From assembly GCA_965655095.1 (NCBI GenBank), contig OZ296648.1:54002001-54066000 (forward strand): a DNA stretch of 64,000 nucleotides. Direction: 5' to 3'. Positions 30,400-58,800 of this stretch are shown one piece after another. The notes under the pieces were generated by a model. The model did not search any database and was not told where the DNA came from. It saw nothing but the letters and a program-made list of their open reading frames with translations. This DNA is from Haplodiscus bocki. Taxonomy: Eukaryota. A program made the position numbers and the translations under genes. Numbering within the stretch: the first letter of the stretch is position 1; every line of letters starts with the position of its first letter.

Positions 30400-30771
30400 G
30401 CCCCATGCTTACAAACGAGCAGATCCAGGGTATCACCATCCTGACAGGGTCCATATCAGTGGTCTTTGTTTTCCTCATCACCATTCTGTTTGTCGTGTTC
30501 TGTTACTACAAAAAGAAGAGAGACGAATGGCATTACAAGAGTTACGGCACAACGGGTGACGTTTCTAGATACAACCCTGACTTCAAGTCCATCGCTGCCT
30601 CAATGCGGTACTCATCAGCCAATCAGAATGCCTCTCCCTCTAGCTACGGGGCTACACTGACACCTAATCAATACCTGTTAAGCAAATTTAATGACAGCTT
30701 TAATCCCAACATGGAATGCAGTCCCTTCCACACAGCAGTCAATTTCTCAGCAGAGCAGCAACGCCTCAAAG
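30400..30771 (+). CDS. Eph: Eph receptor exon: transmembrane helix plus long juxtamembrane region
   Basis: ITILTGSISVVFVFLITILFVVFCYY followed by a KKKR stop-transfer signal. Poly-T CTAG acceptor, AAG|GTACAG donor, phase 1/1. Confidence 0.88.
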
Positions 30772-31096
30772 GTACAGATGACATTTTATTGACCCATTTC
30801 ATTTTGTACAGTACAACTAATGCATACAACACACGTTATAATCTGTCCCTCAATCTAATTCCATATTCAATAAACAAGTTTTGCAATAGTTTATATTCTC
30901 ATCTTGGTCAATAATGTATTCCACCCTTTCAAATATTGGAGATAATTGCGAAATATCCTCTTTTCTCTGAATACGAAAAAATTTCGAATAGTTTTGACCT
31001 AGTTTTTAAACGGGTTTGAGATTTTATCCGATGTAGTCAATTTAAAAATTTTCTTTGACACAAAAATTCAAAATTTGAGATAATTGCTGAACAAGC

Positions 31097-33636: not shown

Positions 33637-35346
33637 TTGAGTTTCACTGACAGTTTCGTAGAAAGAAATTGTTCATGAGCCATCAATTTTTTCTATTAAC
33701 GTGAGATCCAAATGATTCGTACGTCATTTCTGTCGAAAAATCAAAGTTTTCTTGACCTCGAATTTTCGGGCTGGTATTGGGGAGTGCAAGTTGCTTCTTA
33801 GCAGAAAGTAGTCGCGGGAGCGCATGCACGTATCTAACATGGATTGTGGTACTCTTTGAGAGCTTTCATGTGGTACTTTTTTGGGGTGCTGGATCTTTTT
33901 CCTCAAAGTTTAAAACTATTAACCGATTTTTTTGTACATAAGGTCAAACTTTACGTCCTAACAATTGGGTTTAGCGGCTAGAGAAATAGGTGCAGAAACG
34001 TTGCCCATGATGCAATGAATACGCGTGGAGTGTTTGCTCATTCTCATGTCGCCAGTCGTACTCGTTATAAAAATAATACATGAAGTGGATGACCGTTGAA
34101 TCATAAACTAATTTTGTTAATAGATTTTCTGCTTCTCTACTCGTATACAACATGGTCCGTTCAGGATAGCAGTTTGGGTGTTGCAAGTTTAAAAAGAGAA
34201 GTGGCGAAATAAAATTCGCCCATACCCTCCTCTTTATTGGAAGGATCAATTTGTTCACCTGGGTCTAATCTGGGATTGATTAGGGCTTGTGGGAAAATTA
34301 TCCTGGAGGAATTTGAGAAATGGAAAAACAACGGAGATGTAATGTTAACAACGTATCAATACAGCTTTTCCTTAGTAATCTTCATCATGGCTTCGGGCTA
34401 AATAGTTAAGCGATGAAATTTAGCCACAGTGTTGGTGTCTTAGCGTCCCGGTTTGTCTCCTAATTTTCGTCCATAGATTCTATTCAATCTGCATCCTATA
34501 GGCATGCCTCTAAGTGTGTTTCTTTCTCCTGAAATTAATCAAATTTTAAGTATGTCTGCCTTCTACATTGCTTCCTATTTATCCTTTATTTTTTCTACAC
34601 AATCGTCTCTGAGGCTCTTAATTTCTTTCATTACACCGCACGGGTCAGATTTGTTAGGCATAATGAAGTGAAATGTAAAAACTGGAAGTGAAAAAATTTG
34701 AAAGCACTTTCGATTCTACCCATTTATACTTTTTCTTTTTCCGACTGCAATAAATTGTATGAAATGCAACAAAAAATTATTTTTCACTAAAAGCATTCAT
34801 CGCTTAATTCAGAGATAAGTGTTAAAATGAGTTATTCATCAGAGCTTCATGGACAGCTGTGATATATCAAAGGTGCCGACTACTTACCAGGTTGAAAAGG
34901 TTAAATGAAGGGAATATTAATTTTGAGTCTTTTTCTATTGCGAGATAAGAGTTTTTGAACTTCGGTTTTGATGGGTGGGTTGTACATGATGAATTCATGC
35001 TAGACACACAAACACATATTTTTAAATTTTCAGGTACGATGGTTTGCAACTTGTTATAACTATAGTGATATGTTCGTCAGAAATATTGCTTACTATGTTT
35101 TGTTTTTAACATCCATCGGATGGACGTTTTTACCATATCAGAAGATCTATTAAACTACTGAAACAAGTATCGTGGCATTTTCGAAAACTTAATTTCAGAA
35201 ATGCGAAAGATACTAACGAGTTTTGCTTCAGCAGAGAGGCAATATATGATCCATCAGTCGTATACCCTTGATGAAGATGAAGCGTTAATACAGAATTTTT
35301 TTTTCATTTGATCAATCCAATTGATCTATCGATTTTCATGTTTTAG

Positions 35347-35727
35347 AAATGGGGACAGTCCCTCTGCTGGCATGCAGTGGGGTTGATTTATACCTAGAAG
35401 CATCACAATTCTACGAAACATACGAAAACCTTCTTCTAGACTACTCCCGAGAACTTCCTATAGCTTCGTTGACCCTTAACCCCTCCACACCCCAGTCCCA
35501 GAGATTGAGAGGTCACAAACTGAACGGAAGTTTTGGGCCGGGACTCTGTTCTGAGTCAGGATCCCTGTTAGTGGATGAAAGAGAAGGAAAAGTTGAGAAA
35601 GTGAAAGTGACTGTAATGGGAGAAAATTTGGCGGAAGAGGATTTGAAAATTTTCGCTATTCAAGTCATGACAATGGCCAGTTTTCGACACCCTAACGTTC
35701 TCTTTCTCCATGGAGTTGTAACTTCAT
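35347..35727 (+). CDS. Eph: Eph receptor exon: juxtamembrane Tyr motif plus degenerate kinase N-lobe
   Basis: LYLEASQFYETYENLLLDYSREL resembles TYVDPHTYEDPNQAV.EFAKEI; MASFRHPNVLFLHGVVT resembles MGQFDHPNIIHLEGVVT. TTTTAG acceptor, T|GTAAGT donor just after GVVT. Confidence 0.92.
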
Positions 35728-37267
35728 GTAAGTTATAGCTTATTAACAATCAATATCAACTATTGTTTGAACAGTTTTGATTGCTACAATATGAAAGCCA
35801 TCGAAATTGAGTTTGAACAATGGAAACTATGAACAAAAGTTTTGACCAATAATGCTAAATAAGAGTGAATTAAGATAAATTGACGGTGTTATTGTTTTCA
35901 TTGGACCAACTGAAAAATGAGATTGTAAGAAAAAATAAATTCCAGAACTCCGGAATAGGCATCAAATTTGGAACTGGTTCTAAAAGCACACTTCCGAATT
36001 TCATGGACGGATAATTCGTGATACTTTTTCAAGATGTCCCATACTTTCAATAATTGCATATTTTATATTCCGCCCTCTGTATTTTCCCCAATTTTCTGAA
36101 ATGAAAACACGGTTAATTCTCTCTGAAGTACCTTCATACTTAAAAAAAAAATTGAACAAAATAGAGAGGTACCGAACGCATGATTAAAATTTTGCCTTCA
36201 AGTCCTTTCATGAGGCCTGGGGAATACGCACTTTGAAAAGCGGGCGCCGTTAGCTATAATTAAAATAGCACCAGTGAATTGAGTCAATTTCACTTGTCTT
36301 CAAAACCCCCAAATTGGACAGTGCTTTTGAGGAGGCGACCTTCGTGGGTTGAATAAAATTATGGATTATTATGGCGACCATCTCGCTAATTCCGCAATAG
36401 AACTAACTTTTAATAACTCCAAAAATACTCGACTATGTGGTTGAATAAATCCAATCCCTGGAGAATGCAGCAATACATAAAATGCTTCATTTCAAGGGAT
36501 ATAAATATTGGTTCTAAAATACAAATTACTTTGGTTGCGTGTAACATTTCGATATCCCGGTACAAATTTTGGAGCTCAATTCGAAATTTTTCTCGCCAGT
36601 TCACAGTTTCTTTTTTTTTTAGTTTTGAGAAAAAATGCTTGAAAACAGGTCCAAACATTTCCGATTTGTCTAGATTAACTTTTTTGGGACAAATTTTCGT
36701 TCAAATTACTGAAGTAAATCAAAATTTCACTCAGAACAGGACTTTAGGTCGGACTGAAATTGATTAACTTGAGACGAGCTGTTTCTTGTATCGAGAATCG
36801 ATGAAATCCATAGCCTTTCAATGCCGTGGCGCTAATTTCATACTCTTGCGACCACCAAACAATTTCAATAGAAAACTAAAATTATTTAAACGACCCCAAC
36901 TTTGCAGAATCTTTCTCTTTTCAAATTATTTTTATATTAATTTTTCCGGCTTGTGAACCTTTGTACTGCTTTTAACACTGAACAAGTGGTCGAGGTTATC
37001 ACAAAAACAAGTTCAGAACTGATTTATTTACATTTTAATTTTTTTCCCGAAGAATGACGATTTACATCCCTGAAATAACGACCCAAATTGCGATAATTGG
37101 TTCAACGAAACGAATGTAATTGAATGTTAATATCACCGAAAAGTTGCTTTCGAAGCAGCTTTGCCTAATTTTTGCCTAATTTTGAATTTTCAATGAATTG
37201 CGTATTCAAAATTTTAATTTTTGATGCCCAATAAGGTCGTTTTTAATCGACTTTCGATTTTAGTTTT

Positions 37268-37655
37268 AAAAGACGCCGTCTACATCGGGATATTTTTCGC
37301 CCGGTCTAAATTCAACAAAACTTTCAATCCTTGCGCGACTCAAACTGACAACTTTTGTGCTCCTACCGGGCCCTACAAGAACTACTGCGTTAGCCTCTAA
37401 GCCATCTAGATCTCACCAATGGTCAATATTCAGATTAAAATACTCTATTCCTTTCGGCAATTTTTTGCCTCCTCCAATCAGAATCGAGTATTTGATGACG
37501 TCATGCTATTTATAGTTACAGGTTGCCTCAACCAATCAAAAGCGAGTTTTTGCTCACGGTGCACATGAGTTGATCGTGCAGTCGGTAGATTCTTTGTAAA
37601 CATGAATGTTAAACCAATGATTTTCTTTCCAAACATGAAGTATTGGGCGGAAATT
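37268..37655 (-). mobile_element. Helentron/HINE-like element, family B
   Basis: Reverse complement of 24036-24462 (shared TTAGCCTCTAAGCCATCTA, AATCAGAATCGAGTATT, GTCATGCTATTTATAGT). Confidence 0.75.
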
Positions 37656-38774
37656 TAAAACAAAATGACAATTAAAATCTCGGTTTTGTTGAAATTTCAA
37701 TAGTTTTTTCTTCGTTCAGATCTGGAAATTTTTCATGCAATAAGATCTAAATTAGGAGTACTAGCAAATTTTTCTGCTTGATCGGCAGACTTATTTCTCA
37801 ATCTGTCCAACGCATTTTAAGGATCCGTTCAAGCATTTTCTTGGATCAGTCTCCTCAAAACCTCATCCCCGAGTTTTTCTGCATTTTTGATCAGCATACT
37901 TAGTCAAAATGATTGTCAAATCCTCTAGGTATTGAGAATGTTAACAGAGTAGTCTACTCGAACAGCGCCAAAAATGATAAGTAGTTTCGCTGCCTTAGTT
38001 TCTTGGTGGTGATGATTTTGTGAGGGAAGAAAGAATAAAAATATTAGATCTTACACTATTGGCTTGTGCCTGAATTTCAATTTAAGTCTTTCAGTCTTGT
38101 TTCAGGATCAAATAAACGTATGGATTTCCATTTGACTTCCGGTTGTTTTTTTCACAGACTGTTTTTACTTCATGCTGTTTTTGTGGCATCAGAAAATGTT
38201 TGCAGCTTCGGAATCACATAGAATGAATAATGCAGGTGAGTGAATTTTGCGGACGACTTGATGGACTCACGTAGTTTCTTGATTCGGCATGATTATAATG
38301 ATGTCTTTGCCGAAACACAATCAATGTGTCTAATCGGTATTTTTTTGGTTCGCTTATTCCACTTGCTCCCTTCCTTCGTTCGGCAAGGACGTTAGAAAAG
38401 CTTTGGTAGTTTTAAAAAGCCGAGACACAGTTCCTTTACTCCATTTTTTACAGGATAACTGGAATAACACTAGCGGATTTTTCATCCGACTTTGGCAGCT
38501 TGAAAAACGCTATGTATTGCCAATTTATACGAAGTGTTGACTAAAAATCAGTTTTCTTTTGAAGAAACCTTTTTTTCCGATCAATTTTCTAGAAAATTGT
38601 GACTGAGAATATAGAAATAGACAACGGAAAGGAATTTTCTTTGCCAGAGCAGCTTTTTTCTGTGTTTCATTTTCCTTTGCCGTCGAAAATTTTTTCTGAA
38701 AACAAAATATTCAATGCAGTAGCCGATGTTTTTTTCTATTCCTGATTTTGCCCATGACGCGCAGAGTCCTTGGC

Positions 38775-41701: not shown

Positions 41702-41901
41702 NNNNNNNNNNNNNNNNNNNNNNNNNNNNNNNNNNNNNNNNNNNNNNNNNNNNNNNNNNNNNNNNNNNNNNNNNNNNNNNNNNNNNNNNNNNNNNNNNNN
41801 NNNNNNNNNNNNNNNNNNNNNNNNNNNNNNNNNNNNNNNNNNNNNNNNNNNNNNNNNNNNNNNNNNNNNNNNNNNNNNNNNNNNNNNNNNNNNNNNNNNN
41901 N
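41702..41901. other. Assembly gap (200 N)
   Basis: Run of exactly 200 N. Confidence 1.
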
Positions 41902-42249: not shown

Positions 42250-45200
42250 AATTCATGATAACGATTAGGCTTTTCATTGTCCTTAGAAAAAAGCGGTAGT
42301 TGTAGTTTTTTTTGTGTTTGGTATAAAGAAACAAACATCAAAAACCAATACCCATCTTGCTGAATTTAAGAAAAAAAAAGTTTTCAAAGTAATCGACATT
42401 GTGATGCTTGTAATATTTTCGTTAAACTAAGAAGTAAAACTTTTAACAGAGGTGAGCTGCAAAAAAACTTACTTATGTGACCGCGCACTTACAACAAAAT
42501 TCAAAATGGAAAAACAGCGAAGAGTATAAACTATCTCTTCAGCCTCAAGGAAGATCAAAAACGTCAATACTAGTCAAAAGTAAGACCCCTCAGTACTTCA
42601 TTTGTTAACGATTTTCTCAGGATAGAAGCTTACGAAAAATTGATTGAAATTGAAAACGTTGAGTCAGTTAAGAAAATATGTTGAAGCTTTGCAGAAAAAT
42701 ATGAGACCTAAGTCTTTAAACAGAGTTTTCTCTATGTTTTGTTTGAATAAAGTTTTACTGATTGTCACTTTGGTAACCGCATTTTGGATATAGACGATAT
42801 GTACTTAAATCCAGAACGAAAACTTTTTACAACCTCAGAACATACAAACAATATCTATCCACAATCTTCTTTTTAGCGTATGTGTGATGTACAGAAATGA
42901 AGGTCCGTGGGTTGCAATTTTTTGATAATCATCACCGAGGACGTTAAACTTTTGAACATAACAGACAAAGGAGGTAGGAGTTACGTTAAACTGCCTAAGA
43001 GCTTTTGATACATCACAAAAATCAAAAACATTGAAAAAACTAACTGCACAATGGGTGTATTTGAGCACATTCCTATTCTGCAAGAAAAACTTTTTCTGAG
43101 TGGCAGCTATTACAAAATTTTTAATTGGCTTTGAACGAACATGCATGGTTTGGATTTTACCAATTAGCTAAAATTTAGATTCTTCCACCAATTAGAAAAA
43201 GAAAAAAATTATCAAAACATGTCACTGAAATGGGCAAAAAAAACCTTTTTGCCCTAAACTTCTACGAAAAGACAAACTAGAGAATGGAAACTTTCAACGA
43301 CTGATAGTTGAATACTTAATCTTTCAGTGAAGTTTTTAAAATCTATATAAAAAGGAGATATTTTCGTAGCTAGCGAACCTTGAAGAAAATTATATTAAAG
43401 TTGTTTAACGACTTTCACCACAAAAAACACATTCAGAGACCACAAAAAATTCAACCTCAAAAAACAAGCTTCTAGAAAAAAATTCAGACGGAAAGTCTTC
43501 AGCATTTGGGAACCTTTTTAAATTTTTTTCATCTTTTCTAGCAGTTGTTGATTTTGATTGAGAGAATAAAGTAATCCAAGTCACAAATAACGGCAAAAAG
43601 ATAGGGAGCAAAAGCCTGTCAGCTGGGGATTGACTGCATTTTGTGAAAAAAATTTCTCTAAATTTTTCGAAACCCAGTTACCAATTTTATTCCGCAGAAC
43701 GTTTGGGGAAACTTTTTGTAAAATTTACAAAAGATTCACAAAAACAGAACGAAGTATAAAAAAGAAATTTAAAAACAAAGTGGACTGCAAAAGACGAAAA
43801 ACAGCAATAACGCAGAAAGGCGGCCCATTTGTGAAGAAAAATATATTTGTGCTGATGAGTAGATTGACTTTGAGATCCTACAAAAAAAGAGGAAACTGAA
43901 GATAGAAGTCTTGTGAAAAAGCTTAACGACAAAACTTCTGTGACAATTACAATATAACGGGAAAATAAAGGAGAGCAACGCATGTGATATGTAACCTGAA
44001 CATCGGACAATCTTAATTCATGTTCCAACCTATAGGTTTCGACCAAAAAAAAACACGAAGCTCATTTATTTATTACAGAAGTGAAAAAACTGGAAAAAAA
44101 AATGTGGATATGACTTTGACCACGAAAATTCATGAAGAAAAGTTTCATTTATTTTTGGTTGCTTAGGGTTCATTGATTTGTTTAGTCCAATGATTACTAG
44201 ATTAGTAAAGTACAGAGTACAGAAAACAAGAAAAGTAATCAAAGATCATTGCGAAATTGTTATGAAAGAATTAGTTTACCCTTATAGAGCACTCCAAAAC
44301 AACACGGATTTGACAAGCCTTTTGCAGAGACCAGCAAAGCAGATTCCTATCCGACTTTAACAGAAGAAACCCCAACAAAAAAGAGAGTTTGGGAACAAAA
44401 TCATTCAAAAACCAATCACAAAACAGGAAGAAAATCAGGAGATTTTTATAAAATGACACAGCTACATCAAAATAGCAGATATTTTCCCAAAAAACTTAAA
44501 AATTTCATATGAAACCTATGCGCTTGTTCCATTATTTGTTGTATCAACCTCTAGTTATATGTGTTCATGTTCCTCAGATAAAACAAAACAAAGAATGGAA
44601 TTGCTAGAGGTTGAGGATTTATTTTTACCAGTAGAGAAACAAATTGGAGGCGGTCTTTTTGGTGGGGTTTGAACCCAATTTTTCAAAAGGATTAGAAAAT
44701 GAGTGTTATGATACAGAGATGCAAGTTATTTATATGGGTGGGATATGACTGAAGCTTTCCTCTATGCTGGGTATGACTTAATAAACACATTTTCGAAAAC
44801 AACATTTTGTACTAGTGGTGACTAGGAAACTGGCTACTTTGTAGACGCTGACTTAAAACATACCGATGCCATGAAATCAAAACACCATTTCTTTTCGCTA
44901 AACACGGAAGGTGAAAATCTGACAAAATGATTTTCACTGACTTAATGAAAAACAGTTGGCGACTTGAAACTGGACCTGTGAAGAAAGGTATTTGTAGAAA
45001 ATCTGAAAAAAAAACAGTTAATTCACAAGGCAAAACAATTATAAAATTCATCAGGAAAGCAAGATAAAAAATAAGAAACTAAAAACTTTGAAAAATCTAT
45101 TTAGGAGAATTAGCCAGAACCTTTTGCGACTGAATGTTGAGCTAGGAGCTACAAGTGAGAAAGAGTCGGAAGAAAAATTTTGCAAAGGTTCCAACAACAG

Positions 45201-46010
45201 TCTTCTTGGGAAATATTTGAAAAACGTGAAAACCAGATTAGGAAAAGTACCAGCAAAAACTGCTGTTGAATGTGTTGAAACACAGTCTAATATGAGTTAC
45301 AATACCTGTAAACAATAATATGCAGAAGGTGGAGGTGATTTTGTTACTATGCTCCCTCCTAAAGAAAGTATTCACATTTGACGAGCTGATACTCATAGAA
45401 GTTTTTTATTTAGGACATTCACAGTTAGTCATGTATATTACGTAATGAGAAAATTGAAATCCTATTTTGGAGAACATACTTTATATATCAATTTCAAATA
45501 TACCGACTCATCTTTAAAAACTGTTGAGTCAAAGAATTTAGTTAAAAGCCTCAAAAATTTACAAAACACTTACATGTTCGACTTTAGTGACATAAAACAA
45601 TAAACTGATTTAAGTTACGCATTGAAAAGGGAGTTCGGTATTTTTCTGAACGGAAACGCCGGCTTCACTCGACTAAGAGAAATTTTGTACATTAAGAAAA
45701 AATACTTTGGTTACACACATGACAATGGGGAAGATTGTGTAAAACCTGAGGAATAACAAAAATCTTCATCGAAAATTATAAGTGTTGCCAAAGGGTAAGG
45801 TTGTCTAAACATCGAAAATTATAAGTGTTGTCAAAGGTTAAGGTTGTCTAAATACCGTACTTAAAGGAAGAAAGCTTGATATCAAAAAATATATTTTGAA
45901 AGACGATCATCACGACGAGTTTGTTCGATCCAATGAGAAAAAGGAGTTTTAGTGGTTTTGACGATGAGAAAATATAGAAAAACGCAATTGACAATGAACT
46001 TTGAGGAATT
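42250..46010 (+). pseudogene. Decayed Polinton/adintovirus-type protein-primed DNA polymerase B, copy 1
   Basis: Ordered degenerate motifs: FLAVVDFD (~43540, ExoI); CDNYNITGK*RRATHVICNL (~43940-44000, like RDHCH.TGKYRGAAH..CNL); GFIDL (~44165); MKELVYPY (~44260, like RKGVYPY); IADIF..ETYALVP (~44470-44530); IGGG..YRDASYLYGWDMTEAF (~44645-44760, like YLDANNLYGWAMSQPLP); KGSNNSLLGKYLKNVKTR (~45185, like KLMNNS.FGKT.ENVR.R); KYTDS (~45500); SGFDDEK (~45950). Many stops and frameshifts. Confidence 0.9.
45767..45852. repeat. 43-bp tandem duplication inside the pPolB relic
   Basis: CATCGAAAATTATAAGTGTTG(C/T)CAAAGG(G/T)TAAGGTTGTCTAAA occurs twice, at 45767 and 45810. Confidence 0.9.
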
Positions 46011-46249
46011 TTAAATGCTTCATTTTTGCTTTTTTTGTACTCTTTTGCGTTTGTCTTCAAAAAATATAATTTGTTTCTCTACTACCTGTTTGTATTCTTA
46101 TTACAAGCAAAGTTATGTATTGGTATTTGTTGTTTCATTTTTCAAAATTAGAAAAAGTGATTTTTAGAGGGACGTCTTTTTTAGATATTTTAAACGTAAG
46201 AATGCAATCAATGTTCACAATATTGTCAGCCCACAAGAGTCTTACAAAT

Positions 46250-46960
46250 TAGTTTGAATAGATAAATGTATTGAATTAAAATCATGTAGATCCAAAAAAA
46301 CCCACGAGAAGATATCGAGAGCAACTGGATTGTCAACAAGAACATTAACCCGACAATGGTCAGACACTGGTTTTAAAAATTGTGGTGGTTTTGAAAGAGG
46401 GAAGAGGAAGAACTAAAACAATTTGAGGTGAAAAAAGATAACGAGAATATCAAACTCAACCCGGAAAAAGTTTATTAGGAATCATTGTGAAAGAGATGAA
46501 GTGGATTTTTTCGAGCCAGATTTTTACGGAGTTGGCTTAGAAAAATACATAAAATTTTTGAGCTTTTAAATGGAGGAAATTGAGTTACGGAAAAGCAATA
46601 TGAAAATTCAATGAAAGAGATTGGAGAAATTTTGGAAGGAGCACCGAATAGGAGTTTTGACACCAAAAAAAACTTAGCACAGAAAATAATCAGCGAACGT
46701 GAAGTAGCAACAGAAATGCTGAAAGTCGCTCGACAGTTGTCTATAAAAAAGAACTTTTTTTCTAGCTGAATCAAACAAACAATGAGAAATTTGGAAAAAA
46801 ATGGGCTAACAGAATCAAAAAACGGTTTTCAAAAACTTTTTAAGAGAAAACATAGGTTTGGAAAAAAATTAAGTCTGAAAAAAATCTGAATGCAGATATA
46901 CAAAGGTTTTAGGAAAAAATAAAAGTGAAATGTAATCAAATAAAAACTTAGGTTTAAACT
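46250..46960 (+). pseudogene. Decayed Lys/Glu-rich ORF X downstream of pPolB, copy 1
   Basis: Nucleotide homology with 51150-51830 (-), e.g. GCAACTGGATTGTC, TGGTCAGACACTGG, TTAAATGGAGGAAATTGA. Product unrecognised. Confidence 0.55.
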
Positions 46961-47549
46961 TTAAGAAAAGCCCTTTGGTTTGCTCATTCATATGGTATAT
47001 ATTTTGTTTAAATGCAGTCGGTTTAAGGCATCGTTTGCCACACTCCCCACGAATTTTGTTCTCCTCATTTATTTTAATGGAAACATGTGTAAAACTTACG
47101 TTTACTTTGTTTTTATTTTTTTCATTGAAAACTTACCAACTTATATGATATTATTACGAAAGCTTTTAAGAGGTAATTATCATCATAGACAATTTTGTAC
47201 GAAAGACCTTTGAAGCAGTTTTCTCTGATTTTGGAGATAAGAAAAAACCGAGAAACGCAGTTGACAGTAAACATTGCGGAGAATAAGAAAATCAAAGTTG
47301 TCTTTCTGAAGTCAGTCTATTGGCAAAAGTGTAGTTAATGAAATTTGCTTCTCTATGTTCAATTTTTATTTCTATCAGAAGCCTATTTGCCTTTTTCTAC
47401 TTGTTGTTTCCTTTCTTTTATATGAGTAAGAATGTTAATGAGATGTTTGTCAGAATATACTAAACGTATGAATACACACTTCAATTGAAACATTGTGAAC
47501 CTACTAGAATAACAGAAATCAGGTTCACTAGAAGAATGTATAAAAATTA

Positions 47550-48300
47550 AATCCAAAAAGCATAATATAAACCAAAAAATCAAAGGGAACAGGATTGTGA
47601 GCAGGAATTTAATCGAAACCTGGAGGAGTCACTAGTTGGGAATTTCGGGCGTCGATCTACCCGAAAACAGAAGCCAAGCTACACCGAGCCTACAGAAGAT
47701 AAAAAGAACCTCAACCCTATTAAAAAAACGACAAACAAAAAAACTATTGTTAGAGGAAGTGAAGTGGAATCTTGTGCAGGTCAGAGCCGCATGGAATTGC
47801 TTGAAATGTTACAATGAATTTTCAACTTAACAAAAGGAGGAGAAAGATTTACAAAAGAATCACGATGAAACTAAATTGAGCGATTCTGCGGAAAAAAAAG
47901 GAAATATTAATAAAGGCCAACATTGCAACCAAAGAAGAAAAGAAGAGTTGAAGCCGAATCTTTTTAACGAAGATATAGTGCAGCAAAAAAACTAAATGAT
48001 GCTGAACAGATGCTTACACAAAATGAAAAAGACTTAGAATAATCGAAACCAACAAAGAAAAATGTAAAACTTACATAGTGGGTGATGAAATCAGAAAACA
48101 TGTAATAAACATGGTTTTTAATAGCGATGTAGAAAATACTATGAATGCAAAATTTTTTTTTCAAAAAATCTACTAGCAGAGTAAAAAACATTCTACATTT
48201 TAAATAGAAATTCAATAAATTAAACAAGCGATCAAGATGAAACTTTTCTAAAAATCTTCTGCTCAACCTATTCAAAGTGTATAAACTGTTGTATGATTGT
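47550..48300 (+). pseudogene. Probable further paralogous copy of ORF X
   Basis: AAAACATGTAATAAACATGGTTTT matches AAAACATGTTTATAAACCGTTTT in the minus-strand copy, and it is followed by the same downstream segment as at about 47000-47200. Confidence 0.4.
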
Positions 48301-49420
48301 AATTGCTAGAAACATCAATTGCCAAACCTTTTACCAACTCGATGTTCCTCGTTTAGTTCTAGGAAAACATGTCATTTTTGCTTACACTTTGGTTTAACAT
48401 TTTTCTAAATGAAACTCTCCAAATTTTCACGATGTAACCGTCACGTGGTAATCACATCTGTGCTCTTCAGATGGGCTTGGGCAAACACCAAGCACTTGTC
48501 ACGTCCACAGGGAAAAAACAAAACACCATCATTCAAAAAATAACCATCCTTTTCAATTAGTCAACCAGAATGTAATGCATGTTGTGCTACTGGCCTAAGT
48601 TTTGATGAATAATGAAACAATGAACAAATAAAATCAAAGTCAAAAAAAGCAAAAGAGTTATCGCGGTTATCACAAAGAACTATTTTTTCCAATACATCAC
48701 TGATTTATTGAGTACTAGCAGTTTTGGTCTCAATTGACATATTCTCATTTTTCGCTGTTGGACAAAATCTAAGTTCAACTTTGATTTAATTTTTGAAAGA
48801 AAATTAATGTTTATTACTTCATTTCTTAAAAAAATCATTTTTCCCTTTTTGAATTTCTTGAAAAATTTACATTGGGTTTCATTTTCTTTTTTTCAAGGTC
48901 ATTTTCTTGTAACCGTTTTCGAAGCCACTTTTGAAAAAGTTCAATAGTTTTTGAGCTGCGCAAAACATTTTTTTTGTTTGAACACTTTTTGAAAAATTTT
49001 TTTTGAATTTATTTCCTAAGAAATATTGTCACTTAATCATAAACCCCAAATCACCATAGTGCTAATTGTTATAAACTATCAACCCCAATTTTGCAGCAGA
49101 AGTAACGGTTGCGCCAACAAAAACGATTTTTTGATCTGGTTTTAACATAAAGGCCAAAATTTCGTCCTTTCACATTTCTTTCTACTTGTTTTGATTTATT
49201 CTTTGAAATTAGTTATCATCTTTAAGGTTGATAATTGAGTTCATGCAACTATTGTTATCATTTGTTTTTGATTTCCAATCTTTCCTCAACGTCACTGCTT
49301 CCACCAATGAAGTGATTCATCAAAATAGCACTTTCACAATTTGGTTTTAGATATGCAGAAGGTGTCCAACTTGCTTTTGTTCTTTTTCAAAAGTCATGTT
49401 AAATTTATTTCAAATATATA
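48300..49420 (-). pseudogene. Decayed small ORFs Y/Z convergent on pPolB (left arm)
   Basis: Translates PNCESAILMNHFIGGSSDVEERLEIK and HALHSG*LIEKDGYFLNDGVLFFPCG; homologous to 50020-51050 (+). Confidence 0.55.
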
Positions 49421-49712
49421 CATCAATTGTTTTGATTTATAAATACGTGAGAGTACTGGAATGATTTTTTGTAATAGATATTTTGGAACGTTTCTTCCTA
49501 AAAGAAAAGGACTAAAGAAGGACTTATGAAAAAAGTATAAATTAAATATTTGAATTTAATTAATGCGATAAATTTTTAAATTATACTTTATCTGAACTAG
49601 CAAGTAAGATTTTTTTTTATCTTTAATAGTTATTCCAGAAGAGCTATTATAGTTCCAAGAATTATTTTCGACGTTAGTTCTATCACGTTTCCGAATATCA
49701 TGTTAATTAGTA

Positions 49713-49967
49713 TCACAATGCTGTGAGCAGGTTTGGTATACGCACCATCAACTTTCCTTGAAACATCCGTAATGTAAGCACTATCAATTTCTGGGATATA
49801 CCAATCACTTTGTTTTCTATGTTGAGATCAAATTCCATGGCTGAATTTTTATCACAAAATTTAGATATAACTTTTTCAATTCTACTTACTTTACTAGTAT
49901 CTTTTGTTTGGGAATGAAAATTATTAACCTCTAATTGCTTTTTACAATGATTGCAGTAATTTGTCAC
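49713..49967 (-). CDS. Small ORF with an N-terminal CxxC (NYCNHCKK) in the spacer between the two arms
   Basis: 84 open codons from a GTG start; Y-CxxC-KK resembles a half zinc ribbon; the second Cys pair is not intact. Confidence 0.3.
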   Translation of the reverse strand: MTNYCNHCKKQLEVNNFHSQTKDTSKVSRIEKVISKFCDKNSAMEFDLNIENKVIGISQKLIVLTLRMFQGKLMVRIPNLLTAL

Positions 49968-50019
49968 GTTTAAATAACTTATTGTGATCTACAATTTAGA
50001 AACAATTAAATCAACTTTA

Positions 50020-51050
50020 TTTCAATAAATGGAGAAGTGCTTGTTATATGCTTCTGCCCCACTGGAACCTACTGGTAAAAGTATTATTTTGGAACATCGG
50101 CTCATCGGTGGAACTAGTCATGTTGATGATAGATTTAAAAAATAAAAGATATCAACAGCTCCAGTAACTGATTTTCTATCTTTAAAGAGATGATAATTTA
50201 CTTTAAAAATGAAATCAAGATTTTTGAAAAGAATTGTAAGCAGGCAACCATTTGGCCACCTTTCTAAATTAAATTGATACAATCGTTAAAATTGACTGAG
50301 GCTCTACTTCAGTTGCACTAACTATTACAACATTAGAACATAAAGTACTACAGATTACCACTGTGTGGTTCGCGGATCATCAATGCGTGTTATTATTCCA
50401 ACTAACAAAAAGAAAAAAAATAGAAGATCTAATTATGGTGAACGAGCTCAACAAAGAATGAAATCTTTTGATGAATTGTTCAGAAAAAGAATTTGAATTC
50501 GTAGTAAGTGATTTTTTCCACAAAATAGTTAAAAAAGAAAGCGAGACTGAATTTTCGAAAAACTAATTCCTACACATTTGCTTAGAACCGGGAAAATGAA
50601 GCTGAATTTATAATGTTTCCTCAAGTGAAAGTTGAGATTTCTTAAATGAGATCAACTAAAATCATTTATTTTTGATCTACAAAAAAATGGAAAAGTCTGC
50701 CTTTCCTGATACCTAAGAAAACCTTTCTTCTTTTGTTAGTTTTTTTGTTTGGTTGAATCAAATTTTCATCTTTCATCTAGAAAAAAGACAAATCAACCAA
50801 ATGCATTTTCATCTGGTTACCCACCCACTTACGATGGTAGTTTCTTGAAATTTGTCGTTTCTTCTTCCCTGCGATTACAAAAAAGCTTTTCATTTTCGCC
50901 CACTCTCAGGTGAAAGGCAAAATTGTCAGAACAATGTGATAAACACATCTTATAAGTTTTTAAATTTTTATTGGAAACAATATAAATCAAAGTAAACGCA
51001 ATGTTCCCATGTTTTCATAGAACTAATCAAAGGAAACAGAAAAATTTGAG
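50020..51050 (+). pseudogene. Decayed small ORFs Y/Z convergent on pPolB (right arm)
   Basis: PTGKSIILEHRLIGGTSHVDDRFKK and NAFSSGYPPTYDGSFL..FFPCD align with the left-arm ORFs. Confidence 0.55.
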
Positions 51051-51149
51051 TTTCGAAGACGTTGCCATATACCGACTTTTAAAAAACAAATTTTATAAGT
51101 CATAAGAAATGAGAACTAGGGGTTTTTCTAAAAGTTTTACTTCAAAAAT

Positions 51150-51830
51150 TGACTTGAATGCATTTCAGCTTTATCTTTTCCTAAGAGGTTTGTATATCTT
51201 CCCACAGATTTCTCTTCCATAATTCAATTTTTCCGAACCTATGTTGTCTTTTATGTTATTCATGAAAACGGTTTATAAAACATGTTTTGACTATATCGGC
51301 CACTTTTTTTCATAATTTTTCAATCATTGTTTGATTCATCTTATTATCTTTCCCTTTGTATAAAGACCTGTCCAGCAACCTTTGATAATTTTGTTTTCAC
51401 TTCACCTTTGCTAATCAATTCTTATGTCAATTTTTGCAAGGCTTCATTTTTTGAAACTGATACTACTCCCAGATTTTCCGGAATGTCTTTCATTGAGCTT
51501 TCATCTTGTTTCATTTTTGTATTTCAATTTCCTCCATTTAAGAGCTCGGGTACTTATGGGAAATCTTCAAGCCAGTTCCATAAAGTTCTTGTTCGAAAAA
51601 GATCCACCTCATCTCCTTCACACTTAGTCTCTTTAGAGTTTTTAAAAATTTTTCCGGATTGGTGTTGATATTCTCGTTATCCTTTTTAAGCACATTTTTG
51701 TTGATTTTTCTTATATTCACTTTCAAAAGCGCGACGAGTCTCAAACCCAGTGTCTGACCAATGTCATCTTTATGTCGACAATCCAGTTGCCCTCGATTTT
51801 CGTTTTTCGTGTGTTTTAGCTTTAATTGTT
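51150..51830 (-). pseudogene. Decayed ORF X, copy 2
   Basis: Inverted homologue of 46250-46960. Confidence 0.55.
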
Positions 51831-52089
51831 TCTAGTTCTATACATTTATCTAGTAAACGTAGTTTGTAATAAACTTATGGGCTGATGATAATCTGAAACG
51901 TGATCGCAATTTTCTGTTAATTGAAATCTAATAGGGATGTCCTTGGTATGAATACTTTTTTTAGACATAAAAAAAGTAAAATCAAATACAAAGAATAAAA
52001 CGTTCTCTTTTCTGTAGTAGGAAAACAAATTGAAGGTAGAGAAACGGATATAATTGTAGACACAAATGCAAAATGAGGGAGTGTGAAAA

Positions 52090-55000
52090 TTCGAAGATGA
52101 TGGTTCCAAAACTCTCCAAGGTTGACTGTCAATTGTGTTTAAAATTTTTTTTGTCATCAAAACCACATAAACCTTTTTTTAATGGATCAATCAAACATTT
52201 CGTGAAGATTACTTTCCGCAGTACGTTTTTTGATATCTTTTACGTTTTTTTGTGAGTACGGTATTTGAACAACCTTTACAGTTTTGAAAAAATATGTTTA
52301 TTAACGCAGTTTTCTAACATACTTCATGTTTTTTACATTCTTCTCCATTGTTATGTATGTGAACATATGTTTTTGATCTTAGTGTACGAAATTCCTCTAA
52401 GTCAAATGACTCTGGGGTTTTTCTTTTGAAAAAACCACAAGCTTTCTTTTTGGTTGTGTCGCCTAATTCAGTGTACTTCTTTAAATTACTAAAATTGAAA
52501 AGTTTTTTTCGTAAACTTTTTGGTCTTCAACTGAATCATCTGTCTCAAAATTTATTAAAAGTGAGTCCGTTTCTATATATTGCTTTTATACATTATGATC
52601 TCCCGAATCAGATTGCAATTTCTCTTAAAAAGTATTATAGTTAATTAAGTATGAACTTTCTAAATTTTCAACTCTTATGAGTATTGGCCTGTCAATTGTA
52701 TTTCCTGCTTCATCACGAGGGAACATTTAACAGGATCACTTTTGTTTTCTTTATAATGTTGTTGATAGTTACTTTAATTCATATGAGATTGTTTTTTAAC
52801 ACATTCGCCAAAAAACCTTGCCGGTACTATTCTTTTTTCTGGCGTCTTCTCTCACGTTTATGTTCTTTCCGTTTCACAAGAAGATTGATCTTCAAACTTT
52901 TGCACAAATTTTTCTTCATTTTTTTCTCAGCTGTAGCGCAGACTTCCAATCAAAATAATTTTTTTTGCCATTTGTTGTGGTTAAATTTCATAACTCTCTT
53001 TTCTAATTTTCAACCTCATTCTAATTGATAAATTGAGATTTATCTACTGTGTTTATTAATTTTTTTTTCATCATATTAATTACCTATCTATTTCCTTAGA
53101 AGTTCAAGGGGCAAAATTTTCCTCATAAAATCAGTGGAAAGGACTTCGTCAACTTTTTACAACTTTTTAACTTCTGACACTATTGGAAACTATCGTCTTC
53201 TATTTTTATGTCATCTATATAGTCTATGTCAGTGTCTACAAGCTAGCCAGTTTCCTTGTCGACGCCAGTTTTAAGCATAGTTTCCAAAGATGTGTTCACA
53301 TAGTCCTAGCCAACGTAGGGGAAAGATAGAATCAACGCCCACTTATATACTTCATCTGCTTCCATGTATAACAACACTCCCTTCTTATATATTTTTTTAT
53401 CATAACAGATTCCGAAAACACCAGAAACACTGCTTTTAATATGTTTTTCCACTGGTAAAAAAAACTTCGTCCTTCGAAAAATCTATTCGTGTTAATTATA
53501 CATACAGGGTATGCCTACGTATAACCAGAGGTTGATACTAAATTTAATGGATTTAGGCGATAAGTTTCACGTCAGTTTTTTACATGTTTGCGAAAAAGAT
53601 CTGTTAATTAAAGTTCATCTGTCATATTAATAACTTTGTTGATTCTACCCGTTTTGAGATTGATTTTTAAAATGATTTTGATCGCAATTTCTGGTTCTCG
53701 GGAATAAACTGACGAAATCGAATATGATGAATATGATTTTTTTTCTGAGATTTTTTGAAGGTTTGTCATAGTCACTGTTTTTGAAAGTTTCATAAGAGTA
53801 AGCCATGTTTTTCCTGAAAAGTTTGCGACGATCTTCAGATACTTTTCGTGTTTTTGAAAAAATCTTCAATTTTCGAAGATTTCACCAGTGTATCGAAACT
53901 GACATTCATTGGACTCAACGAAACAATGAACTTTACACAACCACTAGTAATTGAAAGATTTTTTCTTCAGTTTTAGGGATAAAACCAAATTTAAGTGTAA
54001 TGTTTTTCTGTTCAGTTGATTCGGTGACAAACGAAACAGTGTCATCGTTTTTCATGTTTTGGAAAACAGAAGGTTGAAAATTTCATTGTCTGGTGCTTAG
54101 GTTACATATTACACAAGCTGTTCTTCTTTATTTTCTGTTTTTATGGCAATGGCCTGGGAGTTTTTTATCGTCATACTCTATCACAAGAAATCTACTTTCA
54201 CTTTCCTCTAAACTTTTGGATCTCAGCGTCAATATACGTTTCAGTACAATTAAATGTTCCTTCACATATGCAACCTTTTTCTCCGTTATTGAAGTTTTTT
54301 TCGTCTTTTTCAGTCTATATTGTTTTTAGGTTTTTTTGGATGTTTCCCTCATTTTTTTGCAAACCTTCTTTAAGTTTTACAAATGGTTTCACTTAATTTT
54401 CTGCAATTTAATGTTCCACACCAGATTTTGAAAGACAATCTAACTCGGAAAAGACTGCCAATCACCAACTGACAGGCGTTTGTTCCTAAATACTTTGTTT
54501 GCGAATATCTGTATCTTAGATAACTTTGTTCTTACATTCAATGTCAGCAACAGCTAAAAATCGTAGAGAAAGTTTTTGATGAATGCCTTTAAAATCAATT
54601 TTTTTTCGTGAATTTCTCCCTCTACAAGTTGATAAAATATTCATTTGTTTTGGTGATCTAATAATGTCTTTTTTTGTTGTTGAGGTAAGTAAACAGTTTT
54701 CACATAACTCTGTTCAATATTATGTTTCTATGAAAGTGTATAAAATTTTTATCATAAAATGATGACTTTTATGATGTAGTGTATCTTTAACTCTCCTTTG
54801 GGGATTGTTCTTGTTTTTTTATTTGTATAATCGTAGACATTTAGGGGCTATGTTTGTTTTTTGGCTAATTCAAGGATGCATATTGATAATGGTTTTTTCT
54901 TCTAAGTTGGGGATGTCTTATTTGTTTTCAACCCGTCGGTGATATCTAAATCAAGCGTTTCTGCAAGATGGGTTAAATGATTACTCATACCTGGTAACTA

Positions 55001-55860
55001 AAAGTTTTTGTTTCGCACGATGTAACTGGGCTAAAATACACCAAAATGCGCAATAAGTATCTTCAATGTTCTTTTTAATTAGGATTGATTTATCGTTTAT
55101 AAGCAGTTTTTGTTAACTGGTACGTCCTTAGTCTGTTGTCTTCGAAAGTTAAATGTCCATGTTATACATTTTTGTACAACGCCACCCAAAGCCATTCGTT
55201 TCTCTACTTCTCACTACCGCTAAAATGGAAGTTGAAGAAGTATCTTATTTATAGAATCTGTGTTTGTGAATTTTTTGTTTCAGATTTACGTGTATACCGT
55301 CTCAACTTAAAAAAACGTTACCACTATGACAATCAAAAACGAAGAGGGCACAGAAAGATGTTTTTTCGTTAAAATTCGGTGTCCTACTCATGTTTGAGTA
55401 AGTTCTACATTTTTATTTAACTAACGGATATATACACCTTTTCCGGCAAAATATTCATTAGCTTTTATCCTAACAAAACCGTAAACAATTTAAAAACCAG
55501 GCAAACGGATCGTACTTCTGAAACAATAACGTTTTTGGTTTTCAATGAGGCTGAAGAGTTAATTGATATTCTTTGTTGTTTCTTCATTTTCAAATTTTTT
55601 GTTCCTACGGCGTCCAGAACTATTTTATTCTATGTATTTTACCTGTGGTATTTACTGTATTTGTGATTTCAACGTAGATTTTAAGAGCATCACAATGGTC
55701 ATATTTTGGGATTTTTGTCTTAAGCAAGATGGGCATTGGTATTTTAAGTTCGTTCTCTTCATACCAAATATAATAGGTTTCACAATTTTCGCAACAAATT
55801 CTAAGGCATTTTTCATTTCCATAGCAACAAGCAAGGGGCGTTACTGAAGAGCATGTCATT
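52090..55860 (-). pseudogene. Decayed Polinton/adintovirus-type protein-primed DNA polymerase B, copy 2
   Basis: Minus-strand motifs: DTYCAFWCILAQLH..DIPNLEEK (N-terminal region); FLAVADIEC; GHCHKNRK*RRTACVICNL; VKFIVSLSPMNVSFDTLVK; RKNMAYSYE; TDLFANM..ETYRLNP; LLYMEADEVYKWALILSFPY; GLCGFDDKK. Collinear with copy 1. Confidence 0.9.
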
Positions 55861-58800
55861 TACCATAAAAAATTTAATTTTTTTACATAATTTTATAAAT
55901 ATTTTTGAGGGGTATGGATTTATGTTTTTTTATTCTGTTGGCTTTTTATGTGTTGGAAGGTAAATATGAATTTTTTTATGGGTAATGATTCGCCCTTTAA
56001 TAACGCCCCTTGCTGACTGCAATGCAAATCAAAATATTACCTAAATTGGGTTCGTGACAAAAACAATACGAGCGTCGTGGGATACACCAAAAATTGTTTG
56101 ACTTGACCCAGTATTTATGACAGCGTTTTGGACACTACTCACCTGCAGGCTGATTTTGAAATTACAAGTGAATGTTTTCTCGATTCAATGAACAAATGAA
56201 GCTTTTGGGCCAAAGTGCAACAAGCATCCCAACAATTTCCAACAGTGCTTTTTTGACGCAACTAAAGCTATGGTTACCTGGGAGTTAGAAGCGGTTTTCG
56301 ATGAACACCGAATACAAATACATCTTTCGTTTCTCAATCAAACCAAACAATATTTGAAAAAATCTTATCACATATCATTACAGGCCCTACAAATTTTACA
56401 GGCCCGGACTAGTCGGAAAAACGATCGTTGCGCTCAATTCTTTTTTTCCAAGAGGAACAAGTTTCAGATGAATTGAAAGGAAATTGTTTGATTTTCAATT
56501 TCTCTAAAATATTATTGCGACGAGGAAGCAGAAAGTCAACCGTGAAAATTCTTACCTCTTCTGGGCTCCAACTTTTTTTTTATTTTTTTTTTGCGCTATA
56601 AATATCAATTTTCCAATCAAAGAGTCTCAAGGGGCTGCACAGGGAAAACTGGGGACGATCATGAAGTTACAAAATAAATATTAACTCTGAACCCCAGCAG
56701 GAGGTAATTCTTGCGACTCTGAAATGCCTCAAAGTAGTAGATATCCGAGCAATTTTCAGACCAGAGCTGATTGGACGCAATACATGGAGGTTTTTTTGAA
56801 AAACACCGTAGGAAACTATTTGAATCTTGCTTGATGTTCAGACTGCAAGTTGAGAATTTTCGTGAGAAAGCGGAAAACAAACCATCGCTCCTCCAATGAA
56901 AAACTACCGGCAGAGGGTAGTTGCAACAGCGCAGTTTCCACAGAATCCCATTACCACTCTCCAAACGAACGTGGCTAAAACAACTTTGAATTTGCCTTGT
57001 TGTTAACTTTCTTCCGCGTGAAAGTGCAAAGGAGACCATCCTTTATTCAGTAAATATTTTGGATTCATAGTAAAACCAAACCTGGATGGTTATTGGGCAA
57101 TTAGTCTTCGCGCTTCTCAACGAAGATGCGAATTAATCCTTTAGTTTTTGCGATGAAATTATATAACTTACCAGTCCAGCTCTTCAGCAGAGCGTACAGG
57201 TTTGGAGTAACAGAAACTGTTGAAAAAAAAACAATTGGTCTATTAGAAGATAGCAATAGAATATGAAAGCGAATCAAAGAAAATGGTGTAAAATTTCAAA
57301 ATCAGTTCTTAGTGTTCGTTACATTTGGTAGTTTTTCGTACCGGCACCAGCGAAAAAGCATTGCATACATGCAAGTAGTGGGAAACTAGGCCATATGAAA
57401 AATTATTTACAAATCAAAAGCACATGGACAAATTCGGTGCGACGGCTTTTTTGTCAGAAAATGCAATTTGCGGGCGCACGGAAAGAACGAGAGCCGTCCG
57501 TAATAAACTTCCCTTCGCTGAATCGCTCGTGCCATTATTTGCAAGTAAAACAGTGAACTCGGTTCCACTCCCTGTCAGTCACCCATTTATTTATGGACGC
57601 TAAAATTCTGCATAAATGCTGGTGGAAACTCCAGGGATAACTGTACGTTTGGTATTCCGAATTTTAGTGCCAAAGAAAAGCAAAACTATTCCAAGCAGCA
57701 CATCTACTCTCAACAAGCATTTGGAGCCTTGCAGATAGCCTATTCTGGCCATAATTGGGATGTTTTTCAGCAGGCTCCCTACTAAAGTAGTTTCAGCAAA
57801 GATGGCTTCTTGCTTATATGTTTCCGTGACTTAATGAATAGGACAAAATGGTTCCCAATCCATCATTGCGGGTCCGAATTCTAGCGAAACGAGTGTTTTA
57901 CATGTTTTCGGACAAACTGCTTTCACGTTTTGGCAATTTTCGACCTACCGGTTCATTTTTTGCAGCAAAAAATCCAAGTTCAAGAGCTAAAACTTTCCAA
58001 AGAATACCAGAAATAAACTTTCTGTGATACCTCGTATTAATAAACTCCAAAGTTGGCGATAAGGGACGTTTGAGAGCTACATGCACTGCTAAATTTGAGC
58101 ATTCTCTGATTGTTTCAATAACAATGTTCCGAAATCTTACCAAATCTTATTTCTGTGAAGAAAAACGAGGCAGGAACGCTGCATCGTGTTTTCATAATTC
58201 AAAATTATCACCTGCCAACTTCATGCAGTAGACTACTTTTTGAAAAACGATATTGAAATAGAATAAATTTTGGGCTGAAAAAAATAAACTGACAATACAT
58301 TAAATTATAAACAGAGAGAAAAGCTAGAAGACTATAGAAATAATTTGTAGACGATTGAGTAAAAACGTTAGTTTTCATAACTAAAATTTCAAAATTGCAG
58401 CATTTGATCCACCAAGAACCAAAAAATGACGCAATGTTCAAAGCCGAGTTGCCTTTTTGTCTCATTGGAAAATAAACTATACGAGGGGTTTTAGATATTT
58501 TGGCATACCACGTTCAGCTGAAATTGTTATTTTTCAGGCAAAAAATGGCAGCTCGAAAATTACCCATTGGTCAAGCACATATTTGGCAAGTTTGTTTGAG
58601 ATAAATGCTTTGGAAATTCCAGGGTCAATTTGCATGGCAACTAGATAGAGCTATTCTGACTGACAATCGCAGCAACTTTATGAGCAAAAACAATGCTTCA
58701 CTCGACAGTTGATGTATTTTAACTAGTAACTAGAAGTTTATCCGTATTTAAACTCTGATATCACATAACCAAAAGTACACTGTAAAATGGGCCTAGAGCG

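What the first reader, a model, noticed from the sequence alone, without database searches (positions are those of the whole stretch)
42250..56090. About 14-kb decayed palindromic array of compact pPolB elements with tail-to-tail and head-to-head junctions
Seen: 42250-49450 and 50000-55860 are inverted homologues along their whole length (pPolB, ORF X, then oppositely oriented ORFs Y/Z), meeting tail-to-tail across a ~550-bp spacer; a third unit appears to start head-to-head at about 55985. Known: the polymerase motifs are those of Polinton/Maverick/adintovirus pPolB, but canonical Polintons are 15-20 kb and carry an rve integrase, double jelly-roll capsid, FtsK/A32-like ATPase and adenain protease, none of which I can recognise here. 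Inference: this may be a reduced ~6-kb ambisense, integrase-less and capsid-less pPolB replicon (linear-plasmid or bidnavirus-like layout, genes pointing inward from both ends). It could have integrated as an alternating concatemer or by repeatedly targeting its own ends.
Basis: partly seen in the sequence, partly recalled or inferred. Interest (0 to 1): 0.8.

Follow-up and report, generated by a model that had tools for sequence, protein, structure and literature searches.

The report
Giant mirror-image Polinton satellite element
This stretch is one very old, dead copy of a mobile DNA element whose right half is the mirror image of its left half; younger copies elsewhere in the same animal genome suggest a family that copies itself as a fold-back hairpin and borrows the integrase of ordinary Polinton viruses, a layout I did not find described for such elements.

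Summary
The inverted homology is real (62-66% identity), but this is not an array of compact units. It is most likely one ancient, decayed palindromic element: pPolB, ORF X131, an opposite-strand Polinton gene and a Cys-knuckle ORF in each arm. The 'third unit' is a fold-back MITE. The genome holds a family of such elements: 29 of 29 close X131 pairs among 150 scored hits are convergent; 11 young examples are palindromes (15-19 kb where complete) with arms 96.6-99.7% alike; 8 of 9 with both ends found carry a 6-bp target duplication around the whole palindrome; one shares its terminus with a full Polinton. None holds integrase or capsid. Their centre is a 100-130 nt imperfect hairpin with conserved mismatches. 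Older copies span 70-88% arm identity, one with the window's gene order. Arms are sisters in a tree, the window's included. Inferred mechanism: protein-primed replication through a hairpin, integration of the palindromic duplex by Polinton integrase in trans. No extrachromosomal form was shown. Not found in nine literature searches or earlier scan notes.

The parts
42300..49610 (+). Left arm (A) of the decayed palindromic element; outer terminus not recognisable (may lie near the assembly gap)
42290..45860 (+). Broken protein-primed PolB, pointing inward; POL1-type (same broad clade as the genome's family-1 Polintons)
   Evidence: up to 62 bits; reversed control 1.5; start approximate, from arm-to-arm alignment
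45767..45852 (+). 43-bp tandem duplication at the 3' end of the arm-A polymerase
46261..46413 (+). Stop-free stretch at the position of the family's HTH gene; looks HTH-like by eye only
   Evidence: position as in relatives; no match to Pfam or to the young HTH: unproven
46570..46960 (+). ORF X131 homologue (signature gene of the palindromic family, long-helix protein of unknown function), broken
   Evidence: 17 bits; control 5.6
47213..48405 (+). Direct duplicate of 45941-47123 (second X131 copy), present in arm A only, more diverged than the two arms
48848..49313 (-). Broken homologue of Polinton gene O177, pointing outward
   Evidence: 17 bits; control 5.8
49446..49610 (+). Mirror of the W180-like ORF of arm B (5' part only)
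   Evidence: arm-to-arm alignment only
49610..49800 (.). Centre of symmetry, about 200 bp; no preserved hairpin or centre motif
49716..49988 (-). W180-like ORF (Cys knuckle), pointing to the centre
   Evidence: 25 bits; control 3.0; 15/37 identical, E 3e-7
50210..50493 (+). Broken homologue of Polinton gene O177, pointing outward
   Evidence: 21 bits
51149..51540 (-). ORF X131 homologue, broken
   Evidence: E 1e-9; 33 bits
52113..55790 (-). Broken protein-primed PolB of arm B, pointing inward
49800..55780 (-). Right arm (B) of the decayed palindromic element; outer terminus not recognisable
55784..56142 (.).
41702..41901 (.). Assembly gap (200 N) about 400 bp outside the first alignable base of arm A

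Best explanation
The window holds one ancient insertion of a whole-length palindromic, Polinton-dependent element. Shown for young relatives: the mobile unit is the two-armed palindrome (15-19 kb), with Polinton-type ends and a 6-bp target duplication, a pPolB and a small core of its own genes in each arm, no integrase, capsid or ATPase, and an imperfect hairpin at the centre. Inferred mechanism: pPolB starts by protein priming at an end and displaces the other strand; because that strand is self-complementary it snaps back into a half-length duplex closed by the central hairpin, with a normal origin at the open end; copying through the hairpin gives the palindromic duplex again. That duplex has two Polinton-type ends and is integrated by the integrase of the full Polintons of the same genome, in trans. 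After insertion the arms drift apart neutrally; the window copy has reached 62-66%.
For: Convergent pairing 29 of 29; 10 of 10 fetched pairs plus C4:88.37 Mb are palindromes, arms 96.6-99.7%; 6-bp duplication in 8 of 9 young elements with both ends found and in 1 older one; C4 terminus matches that of an integrase-bearing Polinton with its own 6-bp duplication, and terminal non-coding DNA is 74-89% alike; X131 in 0 of 10 full-Polinton loci, integrase and capsid inside 0 of 11 palindromes; centre folds as a hairpin with mismatches and its two unlike motifs face each other in 25 of 29 facing pairs, like-with-like in 4; X131 dN/dS 0.11 between elements but pN about pS between arms; arms sisters in 16 of 17 two-arm elements of the tree, window 100/98; the window arms are each other's best match among fetched loci (824 bits against 602 and 292); same gene order in a second old palindrome, C12:8.90 Mb; same premature stop in both arms of C2:109.76 Mb.
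Against: For the window itself no terminus, target duplication or central hairpin survives, and the HTH gene is unproven. Inward polymerase is the minority layout: 1 of 19 young elements examined, 4 loci in all. C11:5.50 Mb has mirrored flanks instead of a duplication. Many elements have assembly gaps at the centre. The window's W180 match covers only a knuckle also found at the start of family-1 ATPases. A lesion-sharing count over all arms was noisy. No extrachromosomal or hairpin molecule, transcript or protein activity was observed; the replication steps and the trans role of integrase are inference.
Confidence: 0.72

Rival explanations
1. Same family and same single insertion, but no hairpin replicon: the element is a linear duplex whose terminal inverted repeats grew until they met (end-repair of a panhandle), and the centre is only a bidirectional promoter or spacer with two degenerate binding sites.
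For: Family-1 Polintons here already have 1.0-1.7 kb TIRs; 2-kb gene-bearing Polinton TIRs are reported in butterflies (passages of 10.1101/2025.02.07.637071); the centre motifs read as direct repeats of RG(G/T)TCA spaced by 5.
Against: A displaced strand of a whole-length palindrome would fold back anyway (established strand-displacement logic); the conserved unlike pairing with rare like-with-like centres fits a heteroduplex that is sometimes repaired.
Confidence: 0.15
2. One reading: ~6-kb compact monomers inserted next to each other or as an alternating concatemer.
For: The window's own ends and target duplication are lost, so two events cannot be excluded at this locus; tandem internal repeats of pol-X131 occur at C4:27.08 Mb and C1:8.53 Mb; 5 of 6 unpaired hits could not be followed past a gap.
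Against: 0 of 29 pairs divergent or tandem; duplication around the whole dimer; arms are sisters; third unit is a MITE; no monomer with a unique inner flank among 6 unpaired hits examined (5 end at a gap at the centre, 1 is a full palindrome).
Confidence: 0.05
3. A deleted ordinary Polinton that was duplicated in inverted form by the host chromosome after insertion.
For: The closest polymerase relatives in the genome (58-61% DNA identity) sit in decayed ordinary Polintons with integrase or capsid beside them; O177 is a Polinton gene; C11:5.50 Mb shows a mirror running 1.1 kb into the flank.
Against: X131 is absent from all 10 full Polintons examined; there is no room or trace for integrase, capsid or ATPase although the same profiles find them at 86-171 bits in equally decayed Polintons; the same order recurs as a palindrome at C12:8.90 Mb; host flanks are not mirrored in the window.
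Confidence: 0.05
4. Assembly artefact (fold-back reads or mis-scaffolding).
For: Gaps at many centres, duplicated centres across gaps at C4 and C3; mirrored flanks at C11.
Against: Window arms are only 62-66% alike; young elements have different flanks with 6-bp duplications and arm-specific indels; a continuum of arm identity from 99.7% to 62% exists.
Confidence: 0.03

Closest known systems
Polintons/Mavericks (adintovirus-type, rve integrase)
   Same: pPolB (PF03175, with endonuclease-VII-like region), 6-bp target duplication, AGTAGT or AGTA ends in 3 of 9 young elements (passages of PMC8097293), length 15-19 kb, shared terminal DNA, HTH and O177 genes shared with this genome's full Polintons.
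   Different: No integrase, capsid, ATPase; the inverted repeat is the whole element; every gene is present twice; own core genes (X131, W180, Y223); conserved central hairpin; three polymerase types on one core; AATAAT ends in 6 of 9.
Butterfly Polintons with 2-kb gene-bearing TIRs (10.1101/2025.02.07.637071, passages seen)
   Same: Genes duplicated inside inverted repeats.
   Different: There the TIRs are about 2 kb and hold hexon and adenain in a full Polinton; here the repeat spans everything and the morphogenetic genes are gone.
Yeast hairpin plasmids derived from pGKL1 (Kikuchi et al. 1985; title seen in the reference list of PMC4443254; content recalled)
   Same: Protein-primed linear replicon existing as a fold-back hairpin and its palindromic dimer (recalled).
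   Different: Cytoplasmic, laboratory-arising, non-integrating; here an integrated, long-lived lineage with selected genes.
Halocafeteria virophages/PLVs with terminal palindromes (10.64898/2026.07.28.741278, passages seen) and Cladophorales hairpin plastid chromosomes (10.1101/145037, passages seen)
   Same: Hairpin structures proposed as part of replication; whole-molecule fold-back in Cladophorales.
   Different: Halocafeteria palindromes are about 52 nt at the ends and go with non-pPolB replication; Cladophorales molecules are organellar, 1-7 kb.
Snap-back defective genomes, self-complementary AAV, symmetrical adenovirus minichromosomes (recalled, no call)
   Same: Helper-dependent, self-complementary genome.
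   Different: Those are transient or engineered; these integrate and show purifying selection on their own gene.

Membership tests
Polinton/Maverick | protein-primed PolB | tested here: met
   window; young relatives PF03175
Polinton/Maverick | retroviral-like (rve) integrase | tested here: not met
   no profile match of 9 bits or more in window 40-60 kb; found at 87-171 bits in comparably decayed Polintons; none inside 11 young palindromes
Polinton/Maverick | double jelly-roll capsid and A32 ATPase | tested here: not met
   only 21-23 bit ATPase-profile matches at the polymerase C-terminus in 3 loci, shared with the Y223 profile
Polinton/Maverick | adenain protease | tested here: inconclusive
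   only a putative family-2 protease profile was available (no Pfam match); no window match
Polinton/Maverick | 6-bp target duplication and AGT-type ends | tested here: inconclusive
   window: ends not recognisable; young relatives: 8 of 9 met
Polinton/Maverick | short TIRs around unique coding DNA | tested here: not met
   inverted repeat spans the element
Palindromic family defined here | two convergent arms that are each other's closest relatives | tested here: met
Palindromic family defined here | core order X131 (in), outward gene, W180 (in) | tested here: met
   same order at C12:8.90 Mb
Palindromic family defined here | HTH gene upstream of X131 | tested here: inconclusive
   no profile, Pfam or BLAST match
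Palindromic family defined here | imperfect central hairpin with conserved motifs | tested here: not met
   absent or eroded in the window and at C12:8.90 Mb
Bidnaviridae | SF3 helicase and parvovirus-like capsid | tested here: not met
   no such Pfam match in the ORFs of young relatives that were scanned; window ORFs too broken for a direct test
Hairpin linear plasmid | free half-length hairpin DNA with terminal protein | not testable with these tools
   only assembled contigs of short-read runs were served

The most novel reading that the evidence does not exclude
An undescribed class of integrating satellites of Polinton viruses: self-complementary, hairpin-centred replicons that dropped the integrase and virion half of the genome, doubled the replication half (keeping helper-like length, possibly to fit helper capsids), swap ends and polymerases with different helpers, and have persisted for a very long time in this animal lineage, with hundreds of copies.
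Probability: 0.5. Interest if true: 0.88.

Novelty: new variant of a known kind. Interest (0 to 1): 0.78.

Why it matters
How Polintons replicate outside the chromosome has been modelled but not observed. A family whose integrated form is a whole-length palindrome with a conserved mismatched centre is a genomic footprint of strand-displacement and fold-back intermediates and makes that model testable by simple DNA assays. It would also be a first described satellite lineage of animal Polintons. Practical points: arm-to-arm divergence dates each insertion, as LTR pairs do, and these elements break this assembly at their centres, so they are probably under-counted elsewhere.

Tried and rejected
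Third pPolB unit at 55985: rejected. Search for window termini and target duplication beyond the MITE and across the gap: scores within shuffles. The 20-bp hairpin at 49532-49589 lies inside the W180 mirror and off-axis, not taken as the centre. HTH identity of 46261-46413: no support. X131 function: no Pfam family, no Atlas hit, models of pLDDT 51 and 79 with pTM 0.38 and 0.32, long helices only; no fold search run. W180 Atlas hits under 0.9. Relatives outside this genome: none confirmed in viral contigs or metagenome contigs; X131 hits in protein collections were mostly unnamed and fragment-like, one full-length cluster at about 31% identity sits on contigs of at most 1.4 kb; a POL3 relative at 29% is named from Macrostomum lignano. 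Sequencing runs: no RNA holder listed; contigs of two runs cover the stretch more deeply inside the element than in its flank, which is no copy number, and show nothing on hairpins or free ends. Shared-lesion count over all arms: noisy, dominated by length variation, not used. Earlier scan notes: nothing relevant. Literature: nine searches gave no whole-length palindromic Polinton; passages of 10.1101/2024.01.15.575659 and PMC12721341 were not relevant; subscription journals, Repbase and supplements were not seen and may hold such a description.
Full report
OBSERVATION. Self-comparison of the window shows one long inverted alignment: 42312-45814 with 55773-52259 (62%), 45837-47156 with 52279-50940 (66%), 48353-48804 with 51026-50576 (58%) and 49092-49361 with 50317-50051 (63%); arm A has an internal direct duplication (45941-47123 again at 47213-48405, 60-62%) and a 200-N gap lies at 41702-41901. 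Reading frames are shattered (longest stop-free stretch in the polymerase 102 and 85 aa). The mirror continues to about 49611/49803, so the unique centre is about 200 bp, not 550. The 'third unit' is a 73-nt inverted repeat within about 55784-56142; its best relative, G000:C11:84.375 Mb, is a 460-bp self-palindrome, and 0 of 5 such loci examined has an element gene near it.

GENOME CONTEXT. G000 (1.5 Gb) gave 10955 first-look pPolB candidates, 91 scored. Ten loci chosen for long pPolB frames are ordinary Polintons of two families with rve integrase, capsid and A32 ATPase. One pair of top hits, C4:88366120-88385434, was different: a 19.3-kb palindrome, arms 99.6%, pPolB pointing inward, then small ORFs (Z241, HTH, X131, opposite Y223; my labels), no integrase or capsid. 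Its X131 matches both window arms (E 1e-9 and 7e-4).

THE FAMILY. X131 gave 1743 candidates, 150 scored; 58 of the 150 fall into 29 pairs within 20 kb, all convergent. W180 gave 1529 candidates; these are not copy numbers, 'hundreds' is my inference. Ten pairs were fetched: 10 of 10 are palindromes, arms 96.6-99.5% (one truncated by another insertion, one with its left end outside the fetch). Of 9 young elements with both ends in hand, 8 have a 6-bp duplication around the whole palindrome; C11:5.50 Mb has mirrored flanks instead. Ends are AGTAGT, AGTATA or AATAAT; the C4 end matches that of a full Polinton with its own 6-bp duplication, and terminal non-coding DNA of five palindromes is 74-89% like that of full Polintons. 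A 6-bp duplication and (AGT)2 ends are Maverick hallmarks (passages of PMC8097293). Complete lengths are 15.3-19.3 kb; two full family-1 Polintons measured 17.8 (at least) and 18.8 kb. Three polymerase types sit on the same core: family-1 type inward (C4, 88-91% aa to full Polintons), a 40-47% relative outward, and an unrelated pPolB clade outward. Outward is the rule: 18 of 19 young elements examined. Of six unpaired hits, five end at an assembly gap near the centre and one is a full palindrome. Seven older loci picked by similarity to the window's inner DNA all show inverted arms of 70-88% identity; C12:8.90 Mb has the window's order (pol inward, X131, O177 outward, W180) and C4:27.08 Mb has inward pol-X131 with tandem repeats; C6:19.72 Mb still has AGTAGT ends and a 6-bp duplication.

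THE WINDOW COPY. Profiles from natural ORFs find, in 40-60 kb, pPolB (POL1 type), X131 and O177 in both arms and W180 in arm B, above reversed-translation controls; integrase, two capsid profiles, ATPase and the others stay under 9 bits, while the same profiles find them at 86-171 bits in decayed Polintons whose polymerase is 58-61% like the window's. W180 is supported over 37 residues only, a knuckle also present at the start of some family-1 ATPases, but its orientation against O177 is that of the palindromes, not of Polintons. The HTH gene is unproven. In a 40-row DNA tree of the X131 region the arms of 16 of 17 two-arm elements are sisters, the window's with 100/98 and about 0.48 changes per site between them; the exception is C12:8.90 Mb, whose left row is long-branched; window rows have deviant base make-up. 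No rate is available, so no age in years. The arm-A duplicate branches outside the two arms, which I cannot explain. No terminus, target duplication or central hairpin survives.

MECHANISM. Shown: the unit of insertion is the palindrome; X131 is under purifying selection between elements (dN/dS 0.11, 9 copies) while arm-to-arm differences are neutral (pS 0.009, pN 0.007, 8 pairs), as expected if arms are near-identical at insertion; young centres fold into 100-130 nt imperfect hairpins of two sequence types; in one type two unlike 15-mers (47 and 50 exact matches, controls 1 and 0) face each other in 25 of 29 facing pairs, like-with-like in 4; one element has the same premature polymerase stop in both arms. 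Inferred: protein-primed strand displacement releases a self-complementary strand that snaps back to a hairpin-closed half-length duplex, whose copying restores the palindrome; the mismatched centre survives as an unrepaired bubble; the duplex is integrated by Polinton integrase in trans; dead-polymerase copies can also be moved. More speculative: doubling keeps helper-like length for packaging. The precedent of hairpin and dimer forms of the yeast pGKL1 plasmid is recalled (title only seen).

KNOWN SYSTEMS AND NOVELTY. It works like a non-autonomous Polinton derivative but fails Polinton membership (no integrase, capsid, ATPase). Nearest printed cases seen as passages: 2-kb gene-bearing Polinton TIRs, 52-nt terminal palindromes in Halocafeteria elements, Cladophorales hairpin chromosomes. 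Nine searches found no whole-length palindromic Polinton; the library lacks most subscription papers and Repbase, and no supplements were read. No relative with context was found outside this genome. O177 resembles, from recall only, the adintovirus 'gasderminX' ORF; untested.

VERDICT. Interest 0.78; new variant of a known kind; the hairpin-replicon step awaits direct DNA evidence.

Noticed in passing
window 20797-21408, 30171-30914, 35325-35738 (+): Exons of an Eph-like receptor kinase (Ephrin_CRD E 4e-5, transmembrane stretch, kinase N-lobe E 0.012); later kinase motifs not seen in the window, so the element may lie in a long intron.
   Followed up: partly
centres of L085, L116, L125, L126, L128: Centre motifs read as direct repeats of RG(G/T)TCA spaced by 5 bases, the form of nuclear-receptor DR5 elements (recalled); 10 of 11 such matches in about 0.98 Mb of loci lie at palindrome centres.
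   Followed up: partly
G000:C5:37.907-37.945 Mb (L044-L047): Tandem array, units 94-99% alike, of a decayed Polinton segment (HTH, pol, integrase, capsid): recent amplification of a dead element.
   Followed up: partly
G000:C9:48.221-48.241 Mb (L048-L050): Tandem array of about 2.1-kb pPolB fragments, 72-87% alike, beside a decayed Polinton with outward POL3-type polymerase, integrase and capsid.
   Followed up: no
G000:C1:106.22-106.27 Mb (L108-L110): Array with a 1.4-kb unit containing the same MITE-like sequence as window 55.8-56.0 kb.
   Followed up: no
G000:C11:5.497-5.516 Mb (L085, L086): Mirror symmetry runs about 1.1 kb beyond the element termini into the flanks, without target duplication: conversion, rearrangement or assembly error.
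   Followed up: partly
G000:C4:32.82-32.86 Mb: Five same-strand copies of one centre motif 4-16 kb apart, without the partner motif.
   Followed up: no
window 7115-7343; 22418-22694 and 29708-29983; 24019-24441 and 37286-37672; 11480-11622; 12476-12727 and 23405-23656: Small fold-back and dispersed repeats, 72-89% alike.
   Followed up: no
L043:8177-9371: HSP90-like reading-frame pieces about 3 kb outside the C4 element (identity judged by eye).
   Followed up: no
small contigs of G000 (20 of 150 hits): Nine of ten minus-strand X131 hits lie 1-3 kb from the contig start they point to, i.e. contigs break at palindrome centres.
   Followed up: partly
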